IMG/VR virus record: IMGVR_UViG_3300032320_000838
Coordinates: 13,760-77,759 of that record
Length of the DNA stretch: 64,000 nt
Strand: one strand, 5' to 3'
Origin: a virus
Lineage: Duplodnaviria; Caudoviricetes
The translations under genes and the position numbers were made by a program. Shown piece after piece: positions 17,131 through 49,590 of the stretch. The notes under the pieces were generated by a model. That model worked only from the letters and a program-made list of their open reading frames with translations. It did no database searches and had not been told where the DNA came from. Within the stretch, counting starts at the first letter, position 1. Each line of letters opens with the position of its first letter.

Positions 17131-17136
17131 ATCAAT

Positions 17137-17164
17137 ATTCTACAACAAGATACACCGAAGTCAA
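17137..17164 (-). promoter_or_regulatory. sigma70-type promoter TTGACT-N16-TAGAAT; likely leaderless transcript of the 367-aa gene
   Basis: -35 at 17159-17164, -10 at 17137-17142. ATG begins 7 nt after the -10 box and no SD is present. Confidence 0.6.
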
Positions 17165-17165
17165 G

Positions 17166-30510: not shown

Positions 30511-30518
30511 TATTTATA
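30511..30518 (-). promoter_or_regulatory. Late promoter TATAAATA (gp22-gp23)
   Basis: Exact T4 late consensus overlapping the gp21 stop codon. Confidence 0.8.
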
Positions 30519-31167
30519 ACTTCTTTAGTTTTGACAAAAAACTCTCAAATACCTTGAGTTTTGTCTTCTCAAGGTCACGAGATGATGATCTGGATATTTG
30601 TTTTTTAGCATTTTCGAGATCTACTGCCTTGAAAATACCGTGTTCCAGAACCCATTCACGACCTTCCATAATACCATTAACGAATGCATTAGGAGCAGAA
30701 GGATCTGCAACAATATCTACTGCGGCAAGCATAAAGTCCTCTTGGACTTCCTGATAGCCGTTCTTTTCGATCAACGAACCCATACCACGGGAAGAAACAC
30801 CAAGTTTGGCGCCTTCGTCCATAAGGTTCTTGACGATCTTACCGTATGGTGTGTCGAGAACTTTGGCTCTACCGCAGATTTGGTTCTTATCGAAGTGTAG
30901 TTCTTTGATCATATGGGCAGCACGCTCAAGATTGACGGTTGGACCTTCTGGGTGTCCGAGTTCTCCGAGTGCTCTGCTGGTGTTCACATATTCTGTGATG
31001 TAGCGGTTTACCTCTTTTTGCATAATAGGCATGGGGTAAACTCTACCATTTCTATTTCTCGCATCAGACTCCATAAAGACACCTTCGATGAAATAGTTCT
31101 TCTTTCCATCGGTGGATGCTTCTGTGAGGACACGAACATCAAGTGTTGTTTCGGTGATTAACTTCAT
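30514..31167 (-). CDS. gp21: Prohead protease
   Basis: [63 protein letters not shown]. Confidence 0.98.
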
Positions 31168-31460
31168 TTTTTACCCTTTATGGCCTTACCGATTGCTTTT
31201 CTGCGGTTCTTTAGATAAGAATCGGTGTTATTTACTTTTCCATCATTATTGATGTCAGAATCCTCTTTACCAACTGGATCTAGTTTTTCATCTATTTGCT
31301 CACCACAAGAAGAGCATTCTTCTTCGGTGAAAAGATCAGAAGCAAGTTCTTTCTTTCTTTCCGCCAAAGCATCACTGACCTTGGAATACAGATTGGCGTT
31401 TACGGACTGTTTAAACAGTTCCAGTTCGCCGTTGATTAGGTGGTTTATTTCATTAGACAT
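31164..31460 (-). CDS. Small prohead core protein (gp67-like) with C-terminal Ca-binding-loop-like motif
   Basis: Position directly before gp21. Helical N-domain [18 protein letters not shown]-terminal [32 protein letters not shown]. Confidence 0.65.
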
Positions 31461-31480: not shown

Positions 31481-31504
31481 TATTTATTCATTTCTATTAT
31501 TTAG
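31481..31504 (-). promoter_or_regulatory. Tandem late promoters (CTAAATA 31498-31504, ATAAATA 31481-31487)
   Basis: Both lie in the 49-nt gap between the Cys-rich cassette and the prohead core gene. Confidence 0.65.
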
Positions 31505-31509
31505 TAGAG

Positions 31510-34182
31510 TTATGTTACTGTAACTTGTAGACCTATACCGTCACCCCAAGCAAGACGGTTTCCGAACTCATCGGATAAACAGGTTGTGGCAGGTGGATTA
31601 GACCACATGCTGTCTAAAGTCAAAGGTCCAAAATCCGATGGAGTGATTGGTGTTGTTCCTACTGGTACACAGTGTGCAGTTGAATAAAATGCTTTAACGG
31701 GACATTCTTCTCCAGTAGTGCAGAAACAACCAATAATAGAAATAATTTCTCCAGTAATAGGATCTGTAATCACACTTTGGAATTCTCCCGGTCGTACCTC
31801 TATCTCGGTTCTAAGTTTAGCCATATATCTTCTACCGTATAGTATAGCGGTAGTTGTACCGTCGCCTGTATATTCTGCAATTGTTGGATTTCCCGAAGAA
31901 TCTCCAGCATAATCTGGTCCTGTTGGAGAAGTGCTGCAAGTAACATCGAATGGGTATGCGGCAGTCCCTCTCCATCTTGCACCCCACCAGTAATTGGAAG
32001 AACCTGTAGCGGTTATACCTCTGGAACCAAGTACACTATTAATGACACTGGCAAATTGAGCAGGGGTTCCATTACCAGTAAATGTACAGCCATCTATTGT
32101 TATGGTTGCCTCATCGGTGCTTGCACTTCCTGGGCTACAAAAAACCCAGGCAAAAGGAGATGTGGATGGACAAGTTCTGGTTATAGTTAAAGCAACACCA
32201 AAAGGATCAGAGCATTCTCCCTGTATTACAGTTCCATCAAAAACCTGCTCTGCCATCATCACCGTTTCTATGTCTGCTTGGTGTAATGGACGAATACAAC
32301 TAGTAAATTGTGGCTGATCTGGAGTTACGGTACATAAACCTTCTTGAATAAAATATGTACCCATCAAACTATTAAAAAGACAATCAATACCATTATTACT
32401 TGGTTCTTCTGTGCAATTCCAGCACTGAGGTGATACATCTCCTACTTCACTACCACAAGGAGAAATACCATCAAGCCATTCTTTGCACATTTTATACGAA
32501 GCAACATAATCTATCATTGTGTTGTCTGGACATGCCGCATTCCTCGGATTATCGAAAGTCAATCCGTTATATGGAAATGTAAGAGTATATGTCGAGTTAC
32601 ATCTAAACCCACCAGTGTCTGTATTTGGTCCAACAGTCCAAGTTGTCTGTGTGGTTTCTGTGCATGGCCATGCACCTATGGATTTAAGTGTTCCTTCATT
32701 CAGAGGTGTTGGTGGTTCTGTCAAACAATCACCATCGGAAGGATTAAATAGAAGTTTATAATCACAACCCAAATAGGTGATAAGGATACAATCCATATTA
32801 TTGATGTCACACATAGAGACACCTAAAGTTTGTGTCAGGTATTGTTCACAGAAATATATGGTCGGTGGACATACTTCTGGACATCCGTTCAGACATTCAC
32901 CACCAATAAGTATTTTATTTGCCGCCCATATCTTACAGCAATATCCAGAATCGGAAACATATCTTCCACCGCTTATATCCGCAGTATCCACTAAACGGTC
33001 ACAAGGACGATCTATACCGACTTCGGTGTTGTTTAGATCTAGGTAATATGGCCATCCTTTGTAATCAAATCCAATCATACTACCGCACTGACCGTTGCTA
33101 TATGAAGCAAGATCTTTGATGCTGTTAAACTGATCTACTGTCAAGCAAATATGCAGTGCTGGTGGTAGTCCTGCTGGTGTTTCTTCGCAAGGACAATCAT
33201 CACACGCTCTCCACTGTATGACTGCTCTGCCGTCTCCTCCAACACCAAGTCCACCGTCACCTATTCCTCTTGTGTTTGTTATTTGAGTGAAAGGACTTGC
33301 TTGTGTGTAACCATTTCTTCCAGCATGGCATCTGGTTAAATCGGAATCACCAACAAAAGACGCTCCACCAGAACCAGCACCACCGTATGTCGTGGTTGTT
33401 GGTGTCGTTATTGTTTGATTGCCTCCTCCACCTCCACCACCAAATCCTCCTCCACCTCCTCCACCTCCACCTTGTCCTGTGGTTGCGTTTACTGCCGCAC
33501 CAACACCACCAGCACCATTATTCGGTAAAGTTCCAAGAATACCACTTCCGCCACCAACAACACCACCAGAACCTGCTGTTGTATTGTTTGCGTTTCCGCC
33601 GGCTGAGATATTAGATGATGGTGAAATGGAGGAACTTATTCCTGCGTCACCACCTCTTCCGTGTAGATTAGTTGATGTAAAAAAGTTGAGAGAGGATGCA
33701 CCACCACCACCGCCTGCAATAAAGACATCTGATGTTTGTGTAGAGGATGATAGAGCAGTTCTATAACTAGTGGAGCCTCCACCATATCTGTATTGATTTG
33801 CAGGCGCAGTTGCAGGACCTATTCTACCACCACCAAACATGGTGTTGGCAATATTTGTGATTGGTCCACCAACACCAACTCTTATAGTAGATGTCTGTGA
33901 TATATTAAAGTTTGTTTCTATATAAGCACCACCACCACCAGAGTAACCACCATTTCCTGCACCACCAGCACCTATAAGAACAAGAAAAACTTCTGTCTCT
34001 ATAGGCGGTATGAACGAGTTGGGTGATCCTCCAGATGAGGTGACTAATGTTTGTGGAGTTGCGTTATTCGAAGTGGGAGAACCATTATTATTAAAAACTC
34101 TCTCTCGCATTTCCCAGCAAGGATATGCGATATATCTACCGTTTTCGCAGGGGCAACACCCTAAAGGTGATACTGAACTCAT
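31510..34182 (-). CDS. Gly-rich plus Cys-rich protein, 890 aa; putative virion appendage / receptor-binding protein
   Basis: GCCPC start. Gly-rich domain (LVLIGAGGAG...IRVGVGG...GGDGRAVIQW) of the phage Gly-rich/ALK-LTK-like type. About 41 Cys by manual count. Confidence 0.7.
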   Translation of the reverse strand: MSSVSPLGCCPCENGRYIAYPCWEMRERVFNNNGSPTSNNATPQTLVTSSGGSPNSFIPPIETEVFLVLIGAGGAGNGGYSGGGGAYIETNFNISQTSTIRVGVGGPITNIANTMFGGGRIGPATAPANQYRYGGGSTSYRTALSSSTQTSDVFIAGGGGGASSLNFFTSTNLHGRGGDAGISSSISPSSNISAGGNANNTTAGSGGVVGGGSGILGTLPNNGAGGVGAAVNATTGQGGGGGGGGGFGGGGGGGNQTITTPTTTTYGGAGSGGASFVGDSDLTRCHAGRNGYTQASPFTQITNTRGIGDGGLGVGGDGRAVIQWRACDDCPCEETPAGLPPALHICLTVDQFNSIKDLASYSNGQCGSMIGFDYKGWPYYLDLNNTEVGIDRPCDRLVDTADISGGRYVSDSGYCCKIWAANKILIGGECLNGCPEVCPPTIYFCEQYLTQTLGVSMCDINNMDCILITYLGCDYKLLFNPSDGDCLTEPPTPLNEGTLKSIGAWPCTETTQTTWTVGPNTDTGGFRCNSTYTLTFPYNGLTFDNPRNAACPDNTMIDYVASYKMCKEWLDGISPCGSEVGDVSPQCWNCTEEPSNNGIDCLFNSLMGTYFIQEGLCTVTPDQPQFTSCIRPLHQADIETVMMAEQVFDGTVIQGECSDPFGVALTITRTCPSTSPFAWVFCSPGSASTDEATITIDGCTFTGNGTPAQFASVINSVLGSRGITATGSSNYWWGARWRGTAAYPFDVTCSTSPTGPDYAGDSSGNPTIAEYTGDGTTTAILYGRRYMAKLRTEIEVRPGEFQSVITDPITGEIISIIGCFCTTGEECPVKAFYSTAHCVPVGTTPITPSDFGPLTLDSMWSNPPATTCLSDEFGNRLAWGDGIGLQVTVT

Positions 34183-35615
34183 GCTTCACACCTTGCCTTA
34201 TATGCATTTGGTATGGAGAATGCATATGTCTCTGGATTTTTATTTTTCTGCATCAAAACTACTACACCTGTTCTAATCGGAAGCATCTCGAAACTACCAG
34301 CAGGAAAGTTGTCGAATATACCATCACCTATACCTTCTATATCATTTAATATTTCGCTGCCATTAATAGCGGTTCCAGTTATTCCACTAGTGGTTGTGGT
34401 GAATCCATTAGATGTGTTGGGAAACACTTGCTCGAATTGATATGTCCATTTAAAGAATGGTGGTGTTGCACCAACACCAGTTGATCCAGTTATTCTTGCG
34501 AAGAATGTATTATCTACTGGTGGATTTCTTACTGCGGGTGGTGGTGGTATTTCTGGGAAGGATGGTTGTCTTCGAAGAGGTATACCGTTCTGGTTAAATC
34601 GAGGAGAACCAGATGGCCAATCTTGATCGTCCCGTGTATACATTACTCCGTTTTCAGTATCCACAAACACATCACAAGAAGTCAAACCAGATATTGTGCT
34701 CAGAATATTAGCATCAGGTGGACCCTGAATACAATCTATACAATCATATGCAACACCTATGCTTCCATCTGATTTTATAATCTCGTGTCCAAGATTGCTT
34801 ACTGTTGCTGGATTATCGGAAGAATATGTGTCAGATCTTATGGTTCCACTAACTATTCCTGACACAGTGTTTTTAAACTGTGTTGGGTAATATGGACCAT
34901 TGACGCCACCCATAGCAGCACCTTCTTTGGATATGAAGGTGTATGGTCTATTGTTTGGTACTTGTGCATTTACACAGTTAAGTAAACTGGGAATATCGTT
35001 TCTATAACCAACAGTATACAGTTCCGCTGGAGTTGAGTATGAAGGATCTTTTGATGCTGCATCTCTCAAACCACACATTTCCAAGAACTGTTGGAACGAA
35101 GGTGTGTGATTGTAATATGATATTCCAGTCGGACCTACTGTCTGGTATGCTATTGGATAAAAAGTATCTTCATTACTGATCTGCCCAGATCCAATAGTAC
35201 CATTTATGTTTAGAAAAGAAATATCACCATTTGGATATGTAACAACATCTGCGTCTATTTCTGCTACAGAATAGTTACCACCAACAACACTGAGTCGGAC
35301 GATCTCACCCTTGCTACCAAGTAGATCCTGAAATGCCTGTTCGTCTATACCAGTGGTACTGGAAGAAACAAGAGGTCCAGCATAAACATTAGAGCATCCA
35401 GTAGAACCAGAATCTCCTCTTGGACCCGCTGGACCAGGAGGTCCCTGTGGACCTGGAGGACAATCACAACAACCATCACCACTACCACCACCACCACCAG
35501 AGGTCGAAACACCTGGTCTGTTGATTATGTAGTTTATGTTGCAACTATCATCGGAACAACCAACTCTTCTGGATTGTTCGTAATCTTCTGCTGTGAACTT
35601 CGGAAACTCTGGCAT
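34179..35615 (-). CDS. Collagen-motif, Cys-containing protein, 478 aa
   Basis: GCCDCPP-GPQ-GPP-GPA-GPR-GDS-GST-GC. C-terminal FFARITG...WTYQFEQV...AING.E...PIRTGVVV.M...YAFSIPNAY..RC domain. SD GGAGG. Confidence 0.7.
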   Translation of the reverse strand: MPEFPKFTAEDYEQSRRVGCSDDSCNINYIINRPGVSTSGGGGGSGDGCCDCPPGPQGPPGPAGPRGDSGSTGCSNVYAGPLVSSSTTGIDEQAFQDLLGSKGEIVRLSVVGGNYSVAEIDADVVTYPNGDISFLNINGTIGSGQISNEDTFYPIAYQTVGPTGISYYNHTPSFQQFLEMCGLRDAASKDPSYSTPAELYTVGYRNDIPSLLNCVNAQVPNNRPYTFISKEGAAMGGVNGPYYPTQFKNTVSGIVSGTIRSDTYSSDNPATVSNLGHEIIKSDGSIGVAYDCIDCIQGPPDANILSTISGLTSCDVFVDTENGVMYTRDDQDWPSGSPRFNQNGIPLRRQPSFPEIPPPPAVRNPPVDNTFFARITGSTGVGATPPFFKWTYQFEQVFPNTSNGFTTTTSGITGTAINGSEILNDIEGIGDGIFDNFPAGSFEMLPIRTGVVVLMQKNKNPETYAFSIPNAYKARCEA

Positions 35616-35634
35616 ATGTGCCTCCTACTTTTGT

Positions 35635-35642
35635 TATTTATA
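35635..35642 (-). promoter_or_regulatory. Late promoter TATAAATA driving the Cys-rich cassette
   Basis: Exact consensus overlapping the gp20 stop, about 10 nt upstream of GGAGG. Confidence 0.8.
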
Positions 35643-37296
35643 GAAGGCTACTTGCGTCGTAATCGACTCCCTTATTGCTGATGAAAGTGCTCTGGACTTG
35701 ACCAGGTTGAGCGTCTGGTGCAGGAGCACCACCCATATTAGGTGAACCTCCCATATCCGCACCAGGCATCGGTTGTCCATCTGGGCCCATAGGTTGCTGA
35801 GATTGCATCTGCGCCAACTCTTCAGCCTTCTGTTGCTCGATTTGTGCGTCGATCTCTGCAATATCTTCATCAGTTTGTCGGAGAATATTCTTACGAATCC
35901 AGTAATCAGAATAGAATTTACCAGAGTAATCTGCGACCTCGCGCATAATTGCCATGCGATCCTTCATAATCTCTGCTTGCTTGGATTCTGCAAAATATGA
36001 ATCGGTTGCGAAATCCAACTTGATGTTTTGATAGATCTCTATCCAATCCTCTTCGTTCATTATCTGTTTTGCAAGACACTGAATCTTTAGGAAGTTTGTG
36101 ATGAGTTCACCGAAGCGAAGACGGATTCTGCCAATCATCTTAGCATACTTGAGTTCGTCTCTATTGATCTCGGATGCTCTTCCCATATTAAAACCATTAT
36201 CTGCTTGTAGGCGAGATTCTGGAATACCGAGAGCACGCATTAGTTTCTTCTGGAAATATAGAACATCTGCCATTTCACCGAGGTTCTGTCCGCCTGGAAG
36301 TGTTTCGATGGAAGTTCCCTTACCACCTTCTCTTCTTGGAAGCCAGAAATCCTCCAACATACTCATATGCTTCTTGTCGTCGCGGATTTCACCTGTGCTT
36401 GCATCGTACACTACCTTGTTTCGGTAGCGATTCATAACTTCGCGCAGATACTGTTCTGCCTTGTTCTTTGGTAGAGAACCAACATCAATATAGAATATTC
36501 TACGCTCGGGTGCTCTAGACCAGCGGTAGATGACAGTAGCATCCTCTACCATTCTCAACTGATTGAGTGGTTTGATTGCCTTGTGTAAGTATCCAATCAC
36601 TTTACGAGTGTTTGGATCATACATTCCTGAATGCACATAATTGATGGAATCTGGAGAAATCTTTATTCCCTGCTCTGGGGAGTTGTAGTTTATGTTGTAT
36701 GTACTTGGCATGGTCTTCTCAAAAGGCATGTACAAGTAATATTCTTCCATCTCCGTTGGAACTTCTACATTTCCAACTCTTTCCTTTTCCTTCACTTCCT
36801 TGATTTTCTTGATGCGAAGAGGATCGACATAACGATACTCTTTTGCACCCTTCTTCTTATTCTCGTGAAGTATTATGTGGTAGTAAAGTCTTCCGTCGAT
36901 GTAAAACCGGCGGAAGATGTCGTATCCTTTTCTCTCAAAATCAAGAAGATACAGAACCTCTTTGAAGGAGTCCTGTATCTTCTCTTTGATTGATTGTGGA
37001 ACATCAACTTTATCTAAGTTGAGTTTAACTACTTGGTTTCTAGCATCTTCGGTGATTACTTCATTCACAACATCGTCTATGGCCATATCGACTTCTGCGT
37101 GTAAGGCCATTTCACGATACTTTCGTATCATGTCGATCTCGTTACGGAGAGTTCCGTCAAGATCAACATAATATCCCTGAAGACCTCCACCCTCTATAAC
37201 AGTCGCACCATCCTCAGCGGATGGTGGGACTATCGAGAATACTTCTTCGTCGGTTTCCTTGCGACCAAAAGTAAATCCGAAAATATTAAAAGCCAT
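35638..37296 (-). CDS. gp20: Portal vertex protein
   Basis: IRKYREMALHAEVDMAIDDVVNE, FYIDGRLYYH, YLHKAIKPLNQLRMVEDA.VIYR.SRAPERRIFYIDVG.LPK.KAEQYL, MSMLEDFWLPRREGGKGT.IETLPGGQNLG. Confidence 0.99.
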   Translation of the reverse strand: MAFNIFGFTFGRKETDEEVFSIVPPSAEDGATVIEGGGLQGYYVDLDGTLRNEIDMIRKYREMALHAEVDMAIDDVVNEVITEDARNQVVKLNLDKVDVPQSIKEKIQDSFKEVLYLLDFERKGYDIFRRFYIDGRLYYHIILHENKKKGAKEYRYVDPLRIKKIKEVKEKERVGNVEVPTEMEEYYLYMPFEKTMPSTYNINYNSPEQGIKISPDSINYVHSGMYDPNTRKVIGYLHKAIKPLNQLRMVEDATVIYRWSRAPERRIFYIDVGSLPKNKAEQYLREVMNRYRNKVVYDASTGEIRDDKKHMSMLEDFWLPRREGGKGTSIETLPGGQNLGEMADVLYFQKKLMRALGIPESRLQADNGFNMGRASEINRDELKYAKMIGRIRLRFGELITNFLKIQCLAKQIMNEEDWIEIYQNIKLDFATDSYFAESKQAEIMKDRMAIMREVADYSGKFYSDYWIRKNILRQTDEDIAEIDAQIEQQKAEELAQMQSQQPMGPDGQPMPGADMGGSPNMGGAPAPDAQPGQVQSTFISNKGVDYDASSLL

Positions 37297-37326: not shown

Positions 37327-37920
37327 TTATCTCTTGCCGCCGAGGTTGAGTTGTGCGCCTGGTCCTTGCTTGACTTGGAAGTATGTGTAACCGAATGTAA
37401 CTTGGAATTCGGATACAGTGTCGTTTTGGTCATAAGCAAGTTCGATTGCAGCAACATCCTTGGGGAAGCAAGCGATCAGTTCGTACTTCTGTACTGTCTG
37501 ACCCTTTCTATTTAGTTGCTCTACAGTAGCGGTGCAACCAGTTACATGGCCCCAGAATGGAGCGGATGTTTCTGTTGTTGCAGCACCAGTGACATCGCCG
37601 ACCATGTTGTTGACGATGCCGTTGTAGTAACGGTTCCACTTCTCGAACTCGTTGCGGATTGTATAGTCCTCTGTGTTGAGAACTGTTACAGTCCAGTCTT
37701 CGAAGGTTCTGTCGCCAGGAACCTTGATCTGACGGCCCAAGTATGGTACGGTGATTTCACCGAGTGTTGAGCCTGGAATGGAGGTTGCCTTTGCGTAGAA
37801 GGTGAGACGGTTGCTGAACTTGATTACACCTGATCTGTCTGTTACTGTAACTCTGAACAGTGTTGGTCTAGAACCACCGTCAAAGTCCTGAATAAATCTG
37901 TCAATTCCTAAGTATGCCAT
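37327..37920 (-). CDS. gp19: Tail tube protein
   Basis: GGSRPTLFRV, AKATSIPGSTLG.I.VPYLGRQIKVPGDRTFEDWTVTV.N..DY.IR..FE.W. Confidence 0.96.
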   Translation of the reverse strand: MAYLGIDRFIQDFDGGSRPTLFRVTVTDRSGVIKFSNRLTFYAKATSIPGSTLGEITVPYLGRQIKVPGDRTFEDWTVTVLNTEDYTIRNEFEKWNRYYNGIVNNMVGDVTGAATTETSAPFWGHVTGCTATVEQLNRKGQTVQKYELIACFPKDVAAIELAYDQNDTVSEFQVTFGYTYFQVKQGPGAQLNLGGKR

Positions 37921-37971: not shown

Positions 37972-39747
37972 TTAGGATGCAGTGCCGGTAAGTTCGGCGA
38001 ATGCGAGTCCTGTTGGGGTTGCCACGAAGTTCAACTGTACGAAGTTGATGGATCTTGTTGGCTTGATGAAGATGTCGCCGACAAATCCGTTCGAGTCGAT
38101 TACTTGTGGTGTGTTGTTGGTTTCGTCGCAAACTACACGGAAGTCCGTAATACCGCGGCGTCCTGCAACTTCACGAAGGAATGGCTGAACCAGTTGTTCG
38201 AACTGATTTCTGGTGAACTCGTCGTTGAACTCGAAGAGAATAAATCTGGATGCGGTGGAGATGGCCTTCTCAAGGACGATGAACAGACGACGAACATTGA
38301 TGCGGTCGAATGCGGATGGTCTGTTGAGGAGGGTCTTATCACCGAAGAGGATTGCGCCTTCGCCTGGGAAGGTAGCAACTGGATTAACTTGCTTCTTGTA
38401 GAGTTCATCGCGGTCGGTTTGACCTGGGTTGTATGCAAGACGAACAACATTCTTGATACGACCTCTGTCATAACCGGCTGGAGAGAACCAAGGATCTTGA
38501 TTGGTGTCTGTTCTTACGCAGCAACCAGCGATGTCGGCATTGAGTGGAGTGTAGATGTAACGATCATTATAGGAATCATACTGGAGTTTGTAACCAGAGT
38601 CCATGAAACCGTAAGAAGAAGACAGGTTAAGTGCTGATCTATAAGCCAAGCACTCATCCAGAGACTGAGAAGCGATTGTATCATAATCTCCTGCGTTGTT
38701 TGGAGAAACGAAAGCAACACAGTCCTTTCTGGATTCGGCGACATTAATCACGGTTGCAGCGTGAGTTGCACTCATTGGGCCAGTGATGAGAATACTGACA
38801 TCAATATTCTGACCGCTGAGGAAGAATGTCTCGAATGCAGTGGCGCAATCACCTTCTACAGTATCAACATTAGCAGCGTTGATTGTGGTGATGACGCCTC
38901 CTGTGAGTGATTTTACACTTATTCCAGAAGTGAGAGACTTGAACACGCTTGCATCGTCGATGTCCAGTGCATCACCCCAATCAGAGTTGGCGCCAGAACC
39001 AGCAACGCTTGCTGTTGGGTGTGAAAGCCATCTTACATATTCGGAGTTAGTGTTAACAACATCCTTGTAATAGTTTGATTGTCCGTCAGCGTTTTGGGCG
39101 TTAGATGCCTTGGAAACGAACGCAAATCTCTCAAGAACTGTTCCTGCTACACCAGAGAACAAACCACCCTTGTCTACTACGAGAACATGGAGTTCGTCTT
39201 TGGCGCCTGTAGCACCGATGCTTTGTGCCCACACAGAGGTTGCTGGAGCATCATCGAAGTTTTTGATGTAATCGGCATATTCATCTTCGAGTAGAGGATC
39301 GCCGTCTGTGTTACCGTTTCCACCATTATCGAGAACTACAACTTTGAGGCTGTCTCCTAGTTTGCCTGGATAACGAGCACACCAAGGTCCGTTAGCAGCA
39401 TTGGAAGCAGCGTTGTCGGAATATGTGGTATCGTTGTAGATGTTGGCAATACCAGAAACACAAGATGCAGTACGGTCACCAGTTACTTTAACTCTGACTA
39501 CATTAAGGTTACTTCCGTAGTCGAGGAAGTTGGATGCCGTCCACCAGAATCTTGCGTAGTACGCATCTCTATCTGGTTTACCGAACTTTGCGAGAAGTTC
39601 TCTCTTATCTGAAAGAAGGGTAGTCTCATCGACTGGACCCCATGTGAAGGCTCCGACGAAGGCAGCAGGAGTTGTTGCTACTGCTGGCACGATGAGTGTC
39701 AGATCCTTTTCTGTTACTGTAACGCCTGGACTGATTTGGAATGCCAT
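37972..39747 (-). CDS. gp18: Tail sheath protein
   Basis: MAFQISPGV.V.EKDLT, PWFSPAG..RG.IKN, LYKKQVNPV..FPGEG..LFGDKT...SAFDRINVRRLFIVLEKAI, IKPTRSINFV.LNFVA. Confidence 0.98.
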   Translation of the reverse strand: MAFQISPGVTVTEKDLTLIVPAVATTPAAFVGAFTWGPVDETTLLSDKRELLAKFGKPDRDAYYARFWWTASNFLDYGSNLNVVRVKVTGDRTASCVSGIANIYNDTTYSDNAASNAANGPWCARYPGKLGDSLKVVVLDNGGNGNTDGDPLLEDEYADYIKNFDDAPATSVWAQSIGATGAKDELHVLVVDKGGLFSGVAGTVLERFAFVSKASNAQNADGQSNYYKDVVNTNSEYVRWLSHPTASVAGSGANSDWGDALDIDDASVFKSLTSGISVKSLTGGVITTINAANVDTVEGDCATAFETFFLSGQNIDVSILITGPMSATHAATVINVAESRKDCVAFVSPNNAGDYDTIASQSLDECLAYRSALNLSSSYGFMDSGYKLQYDSYNDRYIYTPLNADIAGCCVRTDTNQDPWFSPAGYDRGRIKNVVRLAYNPGQTDRDELYKKQVNPVATFPGEGAILFGDKTLLNRPSAFDRINVRRLFIVLEKAISTASRFILFEFNDEFTRNQFEQLVQPFLREVAGRRGITDFRVVCDETNNTPQVIDSNGFVGDIFIKPTRSINFVQLNFVATPTGLAFAELTGTAS

Positions 39748-39822: not shown

Positions 39823-41442
39823 TTAGTTGTTGTACCAGACAGTACCTTTATTGTCTGTCTCGATATCCTCTTCCAAACCATTATCAATAAATCCAAAAGG
39901 AACGATTTCATCCTCAAGTTCTTTCAACTTTGCATCAAATAGTGTCTTTCTGATGTCCATGTTGGTCAGATCTTTAAAATAACCTTGAGTCGTCAACCAA
40001 CAGAAAAGCACCATACACATAACCAGATCGTCATTGTGTCCCGTATCCGCTTCATATGAAGTAGATTTGGCAACAAAGGTCACAAGTTCCTGTATTATAT
40101 TTAGATCCTGAATGATCAGTTTATCGTCTTCTATCATACTTTTCAGAAGAGAACAGCCAATTCTCTTCAGCGGTTTGGTCGTCCTAACACCTAGTTGCGT
40201 CTGGGAAGCACCGAAACCACCGTCCAAGGTCTGTCCCTTACGACCTCGGAAACTAGACATAAGCATATTTTCGTATTCTAGTTCATTATACAAAATATCC
40301 GCCACTTGTCCGCCAATATCGTTTATCTCTACCAGAATGTAAGCATCGTTGTATTTCTGTGCTATGGGATAGATGGCATTTGGATAAATCATGGGCGACA
40401 TTTCGTTGTTCTTAAAAGAAGCAACTACCTTGTAGGGTATGGTGGTAATGTCTACCACGATATAGGCATGATAGTCGAACCCCACACCTCTGGAAGTATC
40501 CACCGTCATTACATAAATGTGATCTTTATGTGGGTACTCATATATGCTCAAACCTTGCTCGCTCTTGGATATTGGCGTCTTGTATGCCATACTCTTCAGT
40601 TTTGTGGCAGCAATCAGGGTATTTGTGGAACCGATAAAGTCACATTCATACTCTACCCTGAACTGTTCTTCAGAAGAGTTAGCGATCTGTTGCTTTCTCC
40701 AGTTTTGATCACGACCAGGGATGTCCGACCAGTGAACGGAAACCGTCTGAAAGGAGTTTCTCTTCTCCTCAGCATCCGTCCAGATCTTGTAGTACATATT
40801 CAATCCATTAGGTGTAGAGAAGATCAACACCTTGGTGTCCGTACCAGACGAAATAGTGGGGTAGGCTGACGCATAGAAGTCATCTGCGATGTTTGGGGGG
40901 ACATACGCAAACTCGTCCAAGAAGATCATATTGAAAGAACCACCACGAATAGCGGAAGACGAAGTGGCAGATGCTTTTACTTTAGATTTGTTTTCAAGAA
41001 CAACCGATCCTTTGTTCCATTCAACTACGCCCTGCTGCAACCACTTTGGAAGATATTCATATGCTACTTTTAGTTTACCTAATAGTTCACGAGCAATCTC
41101 CTGCTTGTGTGCAAGAATCGCAACATTCACTTCTGGATTAAATAAAATGTAGTGCAGGATATAAGAAACAACCGTGGTGGATTTACCTGACTGACGGGGT
41201 AGTTTGGCAATCGTAAAACGATTATTGTGTATGGTTTTCACCATATCTTCCTGAAACTTATACATCTGAAAATCCACCAAACCCTTATCCAGATTTATGA
41301 TCTTGATGTATTTTTTGATAAAATAAACAGGATCTTGAGAACACTTGATGTATTCCTCAAGTTGCTCTGGTGTCCACTGAACCTTTACTCCAGCGGCCTT
41401 AAGATTTTCATTTCCGAGATAGGAGTTATTGCTCATCTGCAA
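39823..41442 (-). CDS. gp17: Terminase large subunit
   Basis: YLGN.NLK, LPRQSGKST, SSSAIRGGSFNMIFLDEFA, STPNGLN, VDTSRGVG.DY, HNDDLVM. Confidence 0.98.
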   Translation of the reverse strand: MQMSNNSYLGNENLKAAGVKVQWTPEQLEEYIKCSQDPVYFIKKYIKIINLDKGLVDFQMYKFQEDMVKTIHNNRFTIAKLPRQSGKSTTVVSYILHYILFNPEVNVAILAHKQEIARELLGKLKVAYEYLPKWLQQGVVEWNKGSVVLENKSKVKASATSSSAIRGGSFNMIFLDEFAYVPPNIADDFYASAYPTISSGTDTKVLIFSTPNGLNMYYKIWTDAEEKRNSFQTVSVHWSDIPGRDQNWRKQQIANSSEEQFRVEYECDFIGSTNTLIAATKLKSMAYKTPISKSEQGLSIYEYPHKDHIYVMTVDTSRGVGFDYHAYIVVDITTIPYKVVASFKNNEMSPMIYPNAIYPIAQKYNDAYILVEINDIGGQVADILYNELEYENMLMSSFRGRKGQTLDGGFGASQTQLGVRTTKPLKRIGCSLLKSMIEDDKLIIQDLNIIQELVTFVAKSTSYEADTGHNDDLVMCMVLFCWLTTQGYFKDLTNMDIRKTLFDAKLKELEDEIVPFGFIDNGLEEDIETDNKGTVWYNN

Positions 41443-44725: not shown

Positions 44726-47700
44726 TTATGCTTGGATCGACATCTTATGTAGGGTGATATTGTATGTTCCCTGCATACATTTGTTGAGTGTTATTCCTAC
44801 TTCGTTTGCACCCAGAGATGGTAGAGCAACGCTACAATCTGGTGAAACTGGCAATATGGAAATATCACCCTGAGCACCAGTTCCCGTAACTGGAGTTAGC
44901 AATACTATTCCTGCTCCAGAATTTTCTTCGCTGTTGACGAACAGTTCAGAAGAATCTGACTGTACCATAGTGTTTATTATTTCTAAACTTCTGAAATTGG
45001 ATCCGTTGATTATGACATTAAACTCAACTAATGCGCTTTCCGCAGGAACAAGAGAGTTTTGTATGTACATAAAATATTTTATTGCTTTTTCTGTACTAGT
45101 GTTATAGTTAATTACATCCAAATATCCACTGCTCATGCCACCAGTACCTGAAATAGTTCCACCAGTATTACCAGTGGGAACAGTTATAGATCCATTCTTT
45201 ACTCTATAGAATCCAGATTTGTTGGTTGATTGTAACTTAAGAGCACCAGAAAAATCATTACTTTCCACATTTATAGTGATATTCTTATCAGAAGCGGTTA
45301 TTGTCTTGCTATCAAGAAGAATATCAGAATTAAACTGCACTCTTGTCGATCCAGATGTTGGGATGGTAGAAAGTCCAGTTGCACCAGAAACAAGTATCAA
45401 GTTTCCTGTAGTGTTGTTTGTAATGATGCCTGTATTGTTGCCGTCAAATCTAAAAGCACAATAATTTGTATTTGATACACCAGTTACTCTGACATCATAA
45501 CCAGCCGCTGCTGTTTGTATTGCTAGGTGTTTGTTTACGGCCGAAGTTCCTATCGTAACTATACCGCCCACACCACTTTCTAATAATATGTGTTTTGCTG
45601 TGGTTGATGTAGAAAGTGCAGTGATGCTTAGTGTAGATGCTGTCTTAATGCTGGGAGAAGTTCCTCCTATAAGAACTGCTCCTCCTCTCAGTGGAGTCAA
45701 TCCCAAATCTACAGAAACAGATAATTCGCCCGACGCCGCGCAACCTATAGTAGGAACACCTGTACCAGAAGGACCAGAAGATATTGTGAAATGTCTGGTG
45801 TTTCCAGAAACAGAAGAAAATGCTAGGATATTGCTTCCTGTTCGTGTAAAACTAAATGTAGATACATCCAGATTACCTCCCAAAGAAGGAGCAGTGTCAG
45901 AGGAAACAACTGTCTGACTACTTATTGTGAAAGTAGATGTACCCGATCCTGCATCATGTGTCGGAACAACTGTGGTTCTTGCTCCTGCTGCTACTGAAAG
46001 AATATGTGGACCATTTCCTGTTACGGCAACATTTGTGGATCCGTTGGAAATGGTAGTATAATATGGCAAACCGTTAGTCGTACTCGCAACCTGTCTGAGT
46101 GTTGCGCTGCACAGAGAACCGTTGGCCTGTCTGTATAGAAGAGAGTTTACATTCAGTTGCAGATTTGCAGCAAGATGTCCCTCTACTCCATTTCTTTCTG
46201 TCGGATTAGCAGTCGTGGAGCCATTGAATGTAGCAATATTATTTGCTGTTTTTATAGATCCTGCTGGCATCAAACCGAGATCGTAATCTATTCTGATGTT
46301 ATCACCATTTAAAGTTGGAACTAGATCTATGTTCTCATATGAGGTAGAAGTAATAGGATCTACTAGATTAACTAGACCTACAGTAAAACTGGCAGGATTG
46401 TTTAGTTGGACATCTGTTTCTATATCAGTAGCAGTTATTCTCGTCAATCCACTGGTAGCACCACCAAGTGAATTTATGGTGTAAGTATTAGTAGAACCCA
46501 CTCTGGTTATACTGATGTTGGTTCCTTCTTGTAGAACGAATGTTTCGTTCAAAGAACTTGCTGTTATTAGAGAACCAGATACTTCAGAACCAGCAGAGTT
46601 GTTTATCTTTATGCTCTTGAAGTAGTTGCTGGAAGTCAATCCAAGTATTTGCTTGACTTCAGTGGAGGTGAGGGACTTGATGTTCTGTCCTGAAAGTCTA
46701 CCGAGGATTTGGTTTTCACCGATTAGGAGATCCACTGGATTTGGATCATCTGTGTTATTTACGCTTGCTTTGACTGTGTTTACTGGCATATTTGCAAGCA
46801 TATCATTCGTTATAGACTCTGGTTTGATGTAGAAAACCAAACCAAGATTGGTGCTTACATCCACTCCAACAGCGTCACTATCATCTATTTCTATTACACC
46901 AGCGGTTTCTCCTGTGGTGAAGAAATTTCCAGTTCTTGTGTTTATTATGTTCTGGAAACCACCAGCAGTATCGGCAGCATCTATACGAATAGCGATCTTA
47001 TTGTCGGGTGCTCCAGTATTAGTTTTTGTCAGAGTGATATTATCTCCCTGAATGAAAACCAGTTCTCCTGCTTTACCATCAGCAGTTTGAGATTGTATTA
47101 CTGATCCACCAGTATCATATAAGAACCAAGAGTTAAACAGATTAGAGTTTTCTTCCAAGAAACCTGTTGGAGATGCACCTAATATGCTTCTAAGTTCTTC
47201 TCTACCCAAAGCAGTTATATTGGATATTTGACCAGTTTCGTCAACCCATCTACCAAACACATATCCCGCTATTTCTGTTGGTGGTGCCCATGCAAGAACA
47301 CTATTTCCAGATATACTCTGAATGGTTGTGTATTCTGTACTGGTTTCCTGATCTGTATAGATCTTGGGATCACCAATATCACCAGTTCCAGTAACAACAT
47401 ATGGCAGTGATGACAATCTATCAAGTGGATCAAAAATATCAATTGGTCTTCCGCTGGATTGTGCTCCCTTGATGCTGAAAGGAACCATATCATCTAGTTT
47501 ATTATTAGTAATAGAACCATCAGCGGGAACAGATAATCCAGTTGCTTCGAACAGAATATCATTATTACTGTTTGATGTTATGCTTATACCCGTTCCAGAA
47601 CGCAGATAAAGAACATCGTTTGCACTTTCAGCCTCTAGAGTATAATCAAGTTCGTTTGTATTTACTCCTATAATCTGTACAGTGGAGTATCCGTTTGCGC

Positions 47701-49333
47701 CGTTGATAAAGACAGTATTTCCACCTGGTGCAAAAGTTTGAATACCATTTTGACCAACGATAGTTGCAGTATCTTCTCCCGAAGCAGTAATAATACCAAA
47801 ATCACCCTGTATTACCTTGAAGTAATCTGCTTGAGACAAAGAAGCAGCACTTATTTCGATTTCATTATTTGTATTCTTTTCTATAGTGATGTTTGCGCCT
47901 GGAATAAGTGTCAAAGTATCACTGACACTATTTGCATCCACAAGTGCTCCACCAGAAATCTGCACATTTGCAAAAGAAGGACTTGAAGAGGACGAAGACG
48001 AAGTAATAAGACCAACAGTGGTTGCATAAGCAAACATAACTGGTTTCACCAGTCCCGTCGTTGGTTTGGTTGTTGTCATTTTACCAGGCAAAGTCTGAGA
48101 AAGATAATACAGAGAACCAGAGGTAAGTCCTGTTGTATTGAACAAACCTGTCAAAGCAATCCATATTTTGCCACCAGAAATACGCTCAACTATACCGAAT
48201 ATTTCCGAGTTAGATTCACTATTTGCTTGAGAGCGGACAAACTGCGAAGCGTTCCATCTTACAACATCACCCACTACTATAGAACCATCATATGATGTGG
48301 AGGTGAATCTGTTTGTGAACTTGTAATCGACAATACCATTCGTATTGGTCAACGGAACCTTGTGTTCTGTGTAATCTGAACTCGTCAGGAACTGAGTGGA
48401 GTTCTGAATATCTTCGATGTATATTCTACCACCAACATTAAACAGAACATAACTACCACCACTATCGTATTTTCCATAAAATAGAGGTGTTCTGGCTCCA
48501 GAGTTGGTTATGTAAGAAACATCAAAAGCATTAGTTGAGTCTATTGCTCTAAGAGTGATGCTTTCGTCCGTATCTGTCGTTATGATTTCTGTGGTTCTTG
48601 TACCGAGAAGCATATTGATCTCGGTATTTGCCTGAGTTGCACCTTTTGGACTGAAGTTAAACTTTGCATATGTGGATCCAGAGGGACCTTCCGACACAAA
48701 TGCCTGATCATAGGATAAACCGATATTCTGATTGGTGTACCAAGCAAGAAGATCACCACGATATACCAGAGAAGGATCCTCATCCAGTGCGTCTATTCTG
48801 AACCCCACCGACGATATGGCAGATCTTGCTGTTGAGGAAACATTACCGATCTTGATTGAACTTGCTTTTAGATGCGTATTGGAAGAATCTACAGTGAAGT
48901 TTGCGGTTGATATGTCAATAGACGAAGAACCACCACCTACAAAATCGTGATCTCCTGAAACCGTATATGGGAGAATATTGGTTGCTTCTACTCTTCTGAA
49001 TGTTTCACAATCAGTAGCATCTGTGGTGATATTTGTGCTATTAGCAAGTTCTATAATATAGTTGTCTTGTTCGTCTGGTATTGTTTTTTCTGGTAGGTTT
49101 TGTATATCCAGAGTCAAAGATACATTTGCATCGTGACGAAGACCACAACCAACATTTACACTAAGAACAGCAACACCATCGGTTATTCTGGTTACAGTTA
49201 TACCAGGTCCAGCAGCAACATCATAGATGTTCAAAGGATTAAGTGCTTCAGAAATACTGTTGGTAGTTTCCCACCAGTTGTAGAAAGTGTCACTCAGTTT
49301 TAGTGGTTGGATTGGATCAAAGAGCGTGCTCAT
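44726..49333 (-). CDS. Large baseplate-attached fibre protein, 1535 aa
   Basis: N-terminal SDTFYNWWETTN anchor motif of T4-like fibres. Repeated DTL.L..G.NI.I units. DTAPSLGGNLD motif. Ser/Thr/Gly-rich. Confidence 0.75.
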   Translation of the reverse strand: MSTLFDPIQPLKLSDTFYNWWETTNSISEALNPLNIYDVAAGPGITVTRITDGVAVLSVNVGCGLRHDANVSLTLDIQNLPEKTIPDEQDNYIIELANSTNITTDATDCETFRRVEATNILPYTVSGDHDFVGGGSSSIDISTANFTVDSSNTHLKASSIKIGNVSSTARSAISSVGFRIDALDEDPSLVYRGDLLAWYTNQNIGLSYDQAFVSEGPSGSTYAKFNFSPKGATQANTEINMLLGTRTTEIITTDTDESITLRAIDSTNAFDVSYITNSGARTPLFYGKYDSGGSYVLFNVGGRIYIEDIQNSTQFLTSSDYTEHKVPLTNTNGIVDYKFTNRFTSTSYDGSIVVGDVVRWNASQFVRSQANSESNSEIFGIVERISGGKIWIALTGLFNTTGLTSGSLYYLSQTLPGKMTTTKPTTGLVKPVMFAYATTVGLITSSSSSSSPSFANVQISGGALVDANSVSDTLTLIPGANITIEKNTNNEIEISAASLSQADYFKVIQGDFGIITASGEDTATIVGQNGIQTFAPGGNTVFINGANGYSTVQIIGVNTNELDYTLEAESANDVLYLRSGTGISITSNSNNDILFEATGLSVPADGSITNNKLDDMVPFSIKGAQSSGRPIDIFDPLDRLSSLPYVVTGTGDIGDPKIYTDQETSTEYTTIQSISGNSVLAWAPPTEIAGYVFGRWVDETGQISNITALGREELRSILGASPTGFLEENSNLFNSWFLYDTGGSVIQSQTADGKAGELVFIQGDNITLTKTNTGAPDNKIAIRIDAADTAGGFQNIINTRTGNFFTTGETAGVIEIDDSDAVGVDVSTNLGLVFYIKPESITNDMLANMPVNTVKASVNNTDDPNPVDLLIGENQILGRLSGQNIKSLTSTEVKQILGLTSSNYFKSIKINNSAGSEVSGSLITASSLNETFVLQEGTNISITRVGSTNTYTINSLGGATSGLTRITATDIETDVQLNNPASFTVGLVNLVDPITSTSYENIDLVPTLNGDNIRIDYDLGLMPAGSIKTANNIATFNGSTTANPTERNGVEGHLAANLQLNVNSLLYRQANGSLCSATLRQVASTTNGLPYYTTISNGSTNVAVTGNGPHILSVAAGARTTVVPTHDAGSGTSTFTISSQTVVSSDTAPSLGGNLDVSTFSFTRTGSNILAFSSVSGNTRHFTISSGPSGTGVPTIGCAASGELSVSVDLGLTPLRGGAVLIGGTSPSIKTASTLSITALSTSTTAKHILLESGVGGIVTIGTSAVNKHLAIQTAAAGYDVRVTGVSNTNYCAFRFDGNNTGIITNNTTGNLILVSGATGLSTIPTSGSTRVQFNSDILLDSKTITASDKNITINVESNDFSGALKLQSTNKSGFYRVKNGSITVPTGNTGGTISGTGGMSSGYLDVINYNTSTEKAIKYFMYIQNSLVPAESALVEFNVIINGSNFRSLEIINTMVQSDSSELFVNSEENSGAGIVLLTPVTGTGAQGDISILPVSPDCSVALPSLGANEVGITLNKCMQGTYNITLHKMSIQA

Positions 49334-49590
49334 TTAAGTCCTCTATTTAACAGTTCTTTTAGCATTTTATTCATTTCGAACAGATTGTTTTTTAACTCTC
49401 TTACTTCTTGTTCCATTTTTATGTATCTTTGCTGATCTTCTTTTCTTTTCTTAGCAGCAATATAACCCGCCCTGTTTGTTGACAGTATGGCTTTACTATG
49501 TCCATCTCTAATGATGTCTGTTCTGTTTTCGAATGGATATTTCATAGGACTGCAATTGCTCTGAGATCTCTTATTTTTGGAACATTCCAA
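49330..49590 (-). CDS. Small coiled-coil protein conserved downstream of VrlC-like genes; likely start at 49545
   Basis: IIRD..SKAIL.T...Y...K...E..ELK..L.E...MLK.LL. ATGA overlap with the upstream gene at 49542-49545. Confidence 0.65.
   Translation of the reverse strand: MECSKNKRSQSNCSPMKYPFENRTDIIRDGHSKAILSTNRAGYIAAKKRKEDQQRYIKMEQEVRELKNNLFEMNKMLKELLNRGLK

What the first reader, a model, noticed from the sequence alone, without database searches (positions are those of the whole stretch)
31510..35642. Two-gene Cys-rich cassette inserted in the portal-protease block with its own late promoter
About 4.1 kb sits between gp20 and the prohead core/gp21 genes, normally one of the most conserved junctions in T4-like phages. 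The cassette has a perfect TATAAATA promoter, a GGAGG SD and an ATGA overlap between its genes, and new late promoters restart downstream (31481-31504). It is therefore fully wired into late expression. The proteins hold 12 and about 41 Cys (manual counts), which is highly unusual for cytoplasm-assembled phage parts, plus collagen and Gly-rich fibre-type domains. Inference: a head- or portal-associated appendage (adhesin/decoration) that is disulfide-locked after release or metal-stapled. From recollection, not a search: the FxARITG...W.Y...E...NA...C domain followed by a 'GCC' start gene resembles tail-tip gene pairs in planctomycete-associated phages, which might hint at donor or host.
Basis: partly seen in the sequence, partly recalled or inferred. 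Interest (0 to 1): 0.8.

Follow-up and report, generated by a model that had tools for sequence, protein, structure and literature searches.

The report
Two-part cysteine-rich phage fibre module
Two late genes sitting between the portal and head-protease genes of an uncultured T4-like phage most likely encode a two-piece virion fibre, a three-stranded stalk plus a swappable cysteine-rich tip with a receptor-binding-type glycine-rich domain; the same undescribed gene pair sits in the tail modules of small unrelated phages.

Summary
A 4.2-kb two-gene operon (478 aa with 12 Cys; 890 aa with 41 Cys) lies between gp20 and a small core gene plus gp21. It has a TATAAATA late promoter, a GGAGG ribosome-binding site and an ATGA overlap.

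It is not an assembly artefact or a recent insertion. A gene-1 homologue follows the portal gene in all 11 related loci (nine distinct contigs). Cultured relatives (S-RIM50, Melnitz) carry only small ORFs there.

Gene 2 is exchangeable. Most relatives carry an unrelated 904-1009-aa protein with about 60 Cys in the same slot.

Gene 1 belongs to a wider family of ~235-aa proteins. In ~25 high-GC phage contigs of about 30 kb or less, these are followed by hypervariable Cys-rich proteins, downstream of head-tail adaptor and neck genes.

Two end features are kept throughout: a Cys in the last 8 residues of gene 1 (58 of 62), and a CC(x)C cluster at residues 8-12 of gene 2 (27 of 29).

Residues 24-327 of gene 2 fold like the TNF-like plus glycine-rich receptor domain of the cyanophage Pam3 tail fibre, which is disulfide-anchored in the virion.

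Best reading (about 0.55): a stalk-plus-adhesin virion appendage joined through the Cys ends. Tail versus neck location is unresolved, and disulfide versus metal is untested. The protein models were poor. The scan had noted these stretches before, only as first-reader notes on this same DNA.

The parts
35635..35642 (-). T4-type late promoter TATAAATA, overlapping the portal stop codon, 20 nt before the gene-1 ATG
   Evidence: The same promoter is found before gene 1 in L005-L010 and L017, and is absent in L011 and L016.
35621..35625 (-). GGAGG ribosome-binding site of gene 1
34179..35615 (-). Gene 1 (P0001, 478 aa, 12 Cys): proposed trimeric stalk or adaptor
   Evidence: A homologue lies directly after gp20 in all 11 related loci. 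Identity is 35-54%, against 79-90% for the portal.
35592..35615 (-). Gene 1 N-terminal peptide MPEFPKFT (the M..FP.F motif), shared with the ~235-aa relatives (MxFPRFTSG)
35394..35471 (-). CCDC cluster, six collagen G-X-Y triplets and a closing Cys (residues 49-74)
   Evidence: columns invariant across 11 homologues; only weak collagen hits in the PDB.
34182..34541 (-). Gene 1 C-terminal domain (residues ~359-478), predicted OB-fold-like barrel ending in a conserved Cys (C476)
   Evidence: 48 distant relatives beyond the seven full-length family members, E 4e-11 to 9e-4, nearly all matching this domain only; the small-family profile hits P0001 at E 1e-22; fold, Z 5-6, weak; terminal Cys in 58 of 62.
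31510..34182 (-). Gene 2 (P0002, 890 aa, 41 Cys): proposed exchangeable distal protein
   Evidence: Relatives carry an unrelated Cys-rich protein in this slot.
34117..34158 (-). Gene 2 N-terminal Cys cluster CCPC...PC (residues 9-22), the proposed docking plug
   Evidence: CC(x)C starts at residues 8-12 in 27 of 29 gene-2 proteins from three families that are otherwise unrelated in sequence.
33202..34113 (-). TNF-like plus glycine-rich domain (residues ~24-327)
   Evidence: PF12810. ALK GRD 7nx3_A Z 8.6, Pam3 fibre 7ypx_A Z 8.3, Bxb1 tail tip 9d93_Pa Z 7.7, next unrelated row 4.9; many viral glycine-rich-domain proteins.
31513..33204 (-). Cys-rich C-terminal region (residues 327-890; 28 Cys invariant across 13 homologues), fold unknown
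   Evidence: No fold match above Z 4.5. No other relatives found.
31481..31488 (-). AATAAATA late-promoter-like site, 21 nt before the 98-aa prohead-core-like gene

Best explanation
The two genes most likely encode a two-piece appendage of the virion that works in host recognition. Gene 1 would form a trimeric stalk. It has a short N-terminal anchoring peptide, a six-triplet collagen helix clamped by Cys clusters, a globular middle part, and a C-terminal barrel domain that ends in a conserved Cys. Gene 2 would be the exchangeable distal part. A conserved N-terminal three-Cys cluster docks on the end of the stalk, followed by a TNF-like plus glycine-rich domain of the kind that binds receptors in phage tail fibres, and then a large Cys-rich body. 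The three terminal Cys of a stalk trimer and the CC(x)C cluster of one gene-2 chain would be stapled by disulfides formed after lysis, or by a metal ion. Shown here: late-promoter wiring, fixed synteny, swapping of gene 2, the two conserved Cys ends, the fold of the glycine-rich domain, and tail-module context in other phages. Inferred: presence in the virion, trimer state, the docking contact, the chemistry of the Cys residues, the adhesin function, and where on the particle the appendage sits.
For: 1. Late operon inside the structural block: TATAAATA, GGAGG and the ATGA overlap. ATAAATA is 10:0 on the coding strand. The promoter is conserved in 7 of the 9 related loci examined.
2. Gene 1 directly follows gp20 in all 11 related loci. 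It is 35-54% identical where the portal is 79-90% identical.
3. Gene 2 is replaced by an unrelated 904-1009-aa protein with 58-60 Cys in L005, L006, L008-L012, L015 and L016. This is the pattern expected of host-range cassettes.
4. The gene-1 C-terminal domain and N-terminal motif define a wider family (reciprocal E 1e-22). In ~25 high-GC contigs the ~235-aa member is followed by a 160-390-aa protein (mostly 220-330 aa) with 4-7.5% Cys. That protein is hypervariable, with 24% mean column identity apart from its CCC head.
5. In those contigs the pair lies downstream of head-tail adaptor and Neck1 genes and before a weak tail-fibre hit. In L003 the order is tape measure, 256-aa ORF, gene-1-like, an Mtd_N protein, then the P0002 homologue.
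6. Terminal Cys of gene 1 in 58 of 62 proteins; CC(x)C at residues 8-12 of gene 2 in 27 of 29.
7. P0002 residues 24-327 match the Pam3 tail fibre gp24, the ALK GRD and the Bxb1 tail tip at Z 7.7-8.6, against 4.9 for the next unrelated row.
8. Precedent: in Pam3 the glycine-rich tip recognises the host (PMC9608196). The three Cys28 of its fibre trimer are disulfide-bonded to a three-Cys cluster on the baseplate wedge, and DTT releases the fibres (PMC9942802).
9. P0053 fuses a collagen segment and a gene-1-type middle domain to a Cys-rich C-terminal region in one chain.
Against: There is no virion proteomics or imaging, and no cultured phage carries either gene. Both AlphaFold models are poor (mean pLDDT 44.7 and 50.8), so the fold statements rest on sub-domains. 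The OB-fold and spike resemblance of gene 1 (Z 5-6) lies within the range of chance arrangements. The gene position next to the portal differs from the tail-module position of the relatives. The docking contact is inferred only from co-conserved termini. Proteins made in a reducing cytoplasm with 41 Cys need a folding route that I could not identify. No Erv1-type oxidase was found on this contig, but the contig is only 43% complete and the control search was silent.
Confidence: 0.55

Rival explanations
1. The pair forms a head- or neck-attached appendage, such as a collar fibre or capsid decoration. The same two-part architecture would be anchored at the portal or neck rather than at the baseplate.
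For: The only evidence is position: the pair lies directly after gp20, under a promoter that overlaps the portal stop codon, in all 11 related loci. One BFVD hit with a glycine-rich domain is labelled 'outer capsid protein' in a Synechococcus phage.
Against: Relatives of both genes in other phages lie in tail modules after the tape-measure or neck genes. The solved structures that match are tail fibres and a tail tip. Gene order in T4-like late operons does not fix where a protein sits in the particle.
Confidence: 0.2
2. The pair forms a tail-tip or central-spike complex.
For: The C-terminal domain of P0001 aligns best with the OB-fold of P2 gpV (Z 6.0). It also aligns with many baseplate central spikes: Mu, phi92, R2 pyocin, phiKZ, Pam3 and A-1(L). 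In the small phages and in L003, gene 1 is the second gene after the tape-measure-like gene.
Against: Z 5-6 is within the noise range, and generic OB-folds (eIF1A, ribosomal proteins, ligases) score equally. No beta-helix or apex domain is present, and no PAAR family hit appears in Pfam. An 890-aa cap carrying a receptor-type glycine-rich domain is unlike any known spike tip. T4-like phages have their own gp5/gp27 spike.
Confidence: 0.12
3. The proteins are prohead-internal or ejected proteins, packaged through the scaffold and delivered with the DNA, like the T4 core and internal proteins encoded at this position.
For: The position between portal and protease is where T4 encodes gp67 and gp68 (established knowledge). 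A 98-aa core-like gene follows immediately.
Against: There is no conserved capsid-targeting sequence or x-x-E cleavage motif. The P0001 'TAE' at residues 8-10 is not kept in homologues. The collagen stalk, the glycine-rich receptor-type domain and the tail-module context of relatives all argue against this reading.
Confidence: 0.06
4. The cassette is an assembly chimera, or the ORFs are not real genes.
For: The window comes from a metagenomic viral contig estimated at 43% complete.
Against: The same arrangement recurs in 11 loci from several samples. An identical protein is recorded on a 79.7-kb contig. Cys and Gly columns are conserved across 11-13 homologues. GC content matches the flanks.
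Confidence: 0.01

Closest known systems
Cyanophage Pam3 tail fibre gp24 and its disulfide anchoring to the baseplate wedge (PDB 7YPX; PMC9608196, PMC9942802)
   Same: Both have a TNF-like plus glycine-rich domain (Z 8.3, 130 residues aligned, 29% identity). In Pam3 the fibre is attached through three Cys of a trimer bonded to a three-Cys cluster of a partner protein, which is the geometry proposed here.
   Different: Pam3 gp24 is 250 aa, docks through an N-terminal alpha-helical bundle and ends in the glycine-rich tip. P0002 has an N-terminal Cys cluster instead, and carries a further ~560 Cys-rich residues after the glycine-rich domain. Its proposed partner is a separate stalk protein, not the wedge. 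The genes lie in the head block.
gp37-gp38 fibre tip of T2/S16-type Straboviridae (gp38 adhesin with a polyglycine-II domain; PMC12032242, PMC12892980)
   Same: Both are two adjacent genes in which a separate glycine-rich adhesin attaches to the end of a trimeric fibre, with modular and variable receptor-binding parts.
   Different: There is no sequence match. gp38 is small (~260 aa), has few Cys and attaches through short helices. 6F45 was not among the listed fold matches.
ALK/LTK glycine-rich domain, Pfam PF12810
   Same: The Pfam score is above the gathering cut-off (27.2 against 24.5 bits). It is also the best fold match (7nx3_A Z 8.6, 7ls0_C 8.2).
   Different: The Pfam family is named after animal receptor kinases. 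Here the domain is a phage structural-type domain, widespread in viral 'glycine-rich domain' proteins.
Mycobacteriophage Bxb1 tail-tip protein (PDB 9D93, chain Pa)
   Same: The glycine-rich domain matches in fold (Z 7.7), and the protein sits at a tail tip.
   Different: Only the glycine-rich domain matches. The host and the phage type are different.
T4 gp67/gp68 prohead core genes
   Same: They occupy the same genomic slot, between gp20 and gp21.
   Different: They are small, acidic or basic, Cys-poor core proteins with no similarity to the cassette. The 98-aa ORF downstream of the cassette is the likely counterpart.

Membership tests
Pfam PF12810 (ALK_LTK_GRD) glycine-rich domain | Score above the Pfam gathering threshold | tested here: met
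   27.2 bits against a cut-off of 24.5, residues 69-294.
Pfam PF12810 (ALK_LTK_GRD) glycine-rich domain | TNF-like sandwich plus glycine-rich lattice fold | tested here: met
   7nx3_A Z 8.6, 7ls0_C 8.2, 7lrz_A 7.7 and 7lir_B 7.5, well above the next unrelated row at 4.9. The model has low pLDDT in the Gly-rich stretches.
Pam3 gp24-type tail fibre | TNF-like plus glycine-rich receptor module | tested here: met
   7ypx_A Z 8.3, rmsd 3.4, 130 residues aligned, 29% identity.
Pam3 gp24-type tail fibre | N-terminal alpha-helical bundle that docks to the baseplate | tested here: not met
   The glycine-rich module starts at about residue 24. The N-terminus is a CCPC...PC cluster, and no helix is predicted there.
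Pam3 gp24-type tail fibre | Trimeric fibre on the baseplate, disulfide-linked | not testable with these tools
   Needs virion structure or mass spectrometry.
gp38-type tail-fibre adhesin | Polyglycine-II sandwich related to S16 gp38 | tested here: inconclusive
   6F45 was not among the listed matches. The relation is only indirect, through Pam3 gp24 (PMC9608196).
Collagen triple helix (PF01391) | Run of G-X-Y repeats | tested here: inconclusive
   Six triplets are visible and invariant. This is too short for Pfam (no hit). PDB collagen hits reach only E 0.4.
T4 prohead core / internal proteins | N-terminal capsid-targeting sequence with a gp21 cleavage site (L/I-x-E) | tested here: not met
   The N-terminal residues after FP.F are not conserved, and no conserved x-x-E is present.
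Central spike proteins (P2 gpV / T4 gp5 type) | OB-fold followed by a beta-helix and an apex | tested here: inconclusive
   OB-fold-like match to 3qr8_A at Z 6.0, tied with generic OB-folds. The domain is C-terminal, and no beta-helix is seen.
PAAR spike-tip proteins | PAAR repeat domain | tested here: not met
   No PAAR family in Pfam scans of P0002, the type-B proteins or a small Cys-rich partner.

The most novel reading that the evidence does not exclude
This may be an undescribed, portable 'Cys plug and socket' connector. The terminal Cys of a trimeric stalk protein and a CC(x)C head on a monomeric partner would form a covalent or metal-stapled joint. That joint would let very different Cys-rich host-recognition proteins be swapped onto one stalk. 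It is shared between a clade of T4-like myoviruses, where it is wired to the portal gene, and small high-GC siphovirus-like phages. It would imply that some aquatic phages rely on extensive post-lysis oxidative cross-linking of their adsorption apparatus.
Probability: 0.3. Interest if true: 0.75.

Novelty: new variant of a known kind. Interest (0 to 1): 0.6.

Why it matters
Receptor-binding modules decide phage host range, and for uncultured aquatic T4-like phages they are mostly unknown. This pair gives a recognisable signature: an FP.F head and terminal Cys on gene 1, and a CC(x)C head on gene 2. That signature flags a swappable, probably host-recognition, cassette in two unrelated phage groups. 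Neither gene has a functional family in Pfam or PHROGs apart from the glycine-rich domain. If the Cys joint is real, it extends the single structural precedent (Pam3) for disulfide-attached fibres. It would also offer a defined attachment point for exchanging adhesins in laboratory phage-host studies. The 28 invariant Cys of the C-terminal region also pose a clear folding question for a protein made in the cytoplasm.

Tried and rejected
- tblastn of P0001, P0002 and the type-B protein against 50,697 cultured-phage records found no match.
- PDB sequence searches with both family profiles gave only noise.
- ESM Atlas returned only collagen look-alikes for P0001 and nothing usable for P0002 residues 330-890.
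- A word-index search with P0002 residues 330-890 returned family members only.
- AlphaFold models of both proteins were poor. BFVD Foldseek for P0001 gave only uncharacterised phage proteins.
- Pfam on neighbours in L021, L003 and L023 gave nothing beyond Mtd_N.
- P0002 and the type-B protein show no similarity by BLASTP.
- The L003 Mtd_N protein is not related to gene 1 by hhalign. The true gene-1-like ORF there is L003 5435-6223.
- L004 (a 183-kb high-GC contig) has a P0002 homologue but no detectable gene-1-like ORF within 10 kb.
- Searching 301 genomes of the class of the Terrimicrobiaceae MAG found the gene only in that MAG, so there is no host inference.
- An Erv1/ALR oxidase search on the contig found nothing, and the control was silent, so it is uninformative.
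- No tRNA genes were found in the window. The terminator and sigma-70 scans were at background.
- A first search for related loci attempt with the 27-sequence alignment failed because no stretch was conserved enough.


Full report
**Context.** The window is 64 kb of a 77.8-kb IMG/VR viral contig estimated at 43% complete. All genes are on the minus strand. Pfam and PHROGs identify the following:
- terminase (39823-41442)
- sheath gp18 (37972-39747)
- tube gp19 (37327-37920)
- portal gp20 (35638-37296; PF07230, E 6e-172)
- a 98-aa prohead-core-like ORF (31164-31460)
- protease gp21 (30514-31167)
- scaffold gp22 and capsid gp23.

The nearest cultured phages are Kyanoviridae, at only 49% (portal) and 55% (capsid) identity. 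In two of them the portal-to-protease gap holds only small ORFs: one of 93 aa in S-RIM50, and three of 61-82 aa in Melnitz.

**The observation.** Two ORFs fill 4.2 kb between gp20 and the 98-aa gene. P0001 (34179-35615, 478 aa) has 12 Cys. P0002 (31510-34182, 890 aa) has 41 Cys.
- TATAAATA at 35642-35635 overlaps the portal stop codon. GGAGG lies 5 nt before the ATG, and the two genes overlap in ATGA.
- Four TATAAATA in the window is no more than chance.
- ATAAATA is 10:0 in favour of the coding strand, and six copies lie 6-33 nt before gene starts. The late-promoter reading is therefore reasonable.
- The same promoter precedes gene 1 in 7 of the 9 related loci examined.
- Cys content is 4.6% and 2.5%, against 0.76% for the rest of the window. 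The other fibre and baseplate proteins have 0-0.7%.
- GC content matches the flanks.

**Not an artefact, and not private to this contig.** Each protein has only 10-12 clusters of relatives among 5.8 billion, all from metagenomes. In 11 loci (nine distinct contigs, L005-L012 and L015-L017) with portals 79-90% identical to this one, a gene-1 homologue follows the portal directly. It is only 35-54% identical.

**Gene 2 is exchangeable.**
- In L005, L006, L008-L012, L015 and L016 the slot holds a different protein of 904-1009 aa where it is complete, with 58-60 Cys (type B).
- Type B shows no BLASTP similarity to P0002, but also starts with a CC(x)C cluster.
- P0002-type relatives at 35-43% identity occur in high-GC viral contigs L003 (33.8 kb) and L004 (183 kb).

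**A wider gene-pair family.** I searched 1.84 billion representatives with a profile of gene 1 without its collagen part.
- Besides the seven full-length family members, the search found 48 distant relatives. Most are ~235 aa, and nearly all match only the last ~110 residues.
- These start MxFPRFTSG, like the MPEFPKF of P0001. They end ...FS.PNGY.V.C, like the ...FSIPNAYKARC of P0001.
- The reverse search with their profile hits P0001 at E 1e-22.
- In ~25 viral contigs with 54-66% GC, most of them 13-35 kb, this gene is followed about 350 nt later by a protein of 160-390 aa (mostly 220-330 aa) with 4-7.5% Cys. The same pair occurs on one 10-kb contig binned in a Terrimicrobiaceae MAG.
- Those partners are hypervariable, with 24% mean column identity. 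They share only a head of the form M-x(6-9)-CCC...C.
- Upstream genes are a head-tail adaptor and a Neck1/tail-completion protein. Downstream is a weak tail-fibre hit.
- In L003 the order is tape measure (E 6e-18), a 256-aa ORF, a gene-1-like ORF (E 2e-8), a protein with the N-terminal domain of the Bordetella phage tropism determinant Mtd (PF18454, E 7e-11), and then the P0002 homologue.

The planctomycete link was not shown: no other of 301 genomes sampled from the MAG's class had a match.

**Two co-conserved ends.**
- A Cys lies within the last 8 residues in 14 of 14 T4-type gene-1 proteins and in 44 of 48 distant relatives, whose median Cys content is only 1.1%.
- A CC(x)C cluster starts at residues 8-12 in 27 of 29 gene-2 proteins from three families that are otherwise unrelated. 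The two exceptions look like mis-called start codons.
- P0053 joins a collagen segment and a gene-1-type middle domain to a Cys-rich C-terminal region in one chain.

**Folds.** Both AlphaFold models are poor overall (pLDDT 44.7 and 50.8).
- An exhaustive alignment against 48,161 PDB representatives puts P0002 residues 24-327 clearly with the ALK glycine-rich domain (Z 8.6), the cyanophage Pam3 fibre gp24 (Z 8.3, 29% identity) and the Bxb1 tail tip (Z 7.7). The next unrelated row is at 4.9. This agrees with the Pfam hit PF12810 and with many viral glycine-rich-domain proteins in BFVD.
- The remaining 560 residues, with 28 invariant Cys, match nothing.
- P0001 residues 359-469 look like an OB-fold. 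P2 gpV and many baseplate spikes are among the best matches, but at Z 5-6 and mixed with generic OB-folds, so I treat this only as a lead.

[quoted passage not shown] The three Cys28 of each fibre trimer are disulfide-bonded to three-Cys clusters on the baseplate wedge, and DTT releases the fibres (PMC9942802).

By analogy, I propose that gene 1 is a trimeric stalk. The collagen triplets, clamped by the CCDC cluster and a closing Cys (conserved columns C49, C50, C52 and C74), argue for a trimer. Its three terminal Cys would meet the CC(x)C head of one gene-2 chain. The glycine-rich domain and the Cys-rich body would then be the variable, host-facing part.

The scattered spacing of the Cys residues, with few CxxC pairs and an even number of invariant Cys (28), looks more like disulfides than zinc sites. 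This is inference only. Neither protein has a signal-peptide-like N-terminus, so any oxidation would have to come after lysis or from an unidentified oxidase.

**Location on the particle is open.** Relatives and fold matches point to the tail. The fixed position behind the portal gene is the only argument for the neck or head. Prohead-internal proteins are unlikely, because no conserved targeting or cleavage motif is present.

**Verdict.** This is a real, conserved, late-expressed two-gene module. It is most likely a stalk-plus-adhesin appendage with an unusual Cys-based joint. The glycine-rich domain is a known kind. The gene-1 family, the Cys head-and-tail signature, the Cys-rich bodies and the portal-linked position are not described in the libraries and papers I could search.

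Noticed in passing
L006:4092-6806 and L016:11371-14400 (also partial in L005, L008-L012, L015): A second, unrelated family of 904-1009-aa proteins with 58-60 Cys occupies the gene-2 slot in most relatives. Its Cys-poor central part (around WLFNMTFERWWKIA ... DDYYFWAERQWVYFR) has no Pfam hit and might be an enzyme-like domain.
   Followed up: partly
L003:6156-6896: A 246-aa protein with the N-terminal domain of the Bordetella phage tropism determinant Mtd (PF18454, E 7e-11) lies between the gene-1-like ORF and the P0002 homologue. I did not check whether a diversity-generating retroelement is nearby.
   Followed up: no
L004 (183-kb high-GC IMG/VR contig), 15445-17304: A large high-GC phage carries a P0002 homologue without a detectable gene-1 partner. 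It lies near a protein matching phrog_25354 and, weakly, an RNA polymerase beta subunit.
   Followed up: no
window, whole: ATAAATA occurs 10 times on the coding strand and never on the other. Copies lie 6-33 nt before the gene starts at 44307, 35615, 31460, 30482, 26659 and 11990, which gives a usable map of late promoters.
   Followed up: partly
window 31164-31460: The 98-aa ORF after the cassette matches several PHROGs of unknown function and, weakly, a 'prohead' family (phrog_1064). It is probably the gp67/gp68 counterpart. It is 67% identical in L006.
   Followed up: partly
P0053 and P0055 (metagenomic proteins): Longer proteins combine a collagen segment and the gene-1 middle domain with either a Cys-rich tail (P0053) or two copies of the gene-1 C-terminal domain (P0055). 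This suggests domain shuffling within the family.
   Followed up: no
window 44726-55415: Two very large ORFs (1535 and 1957 aa) lie between the neck and baseplate genes. The second matches phrog_358 and phrog_877, both of unknown function (E 2e-205), and the first matches nothing.
   Followed up: no
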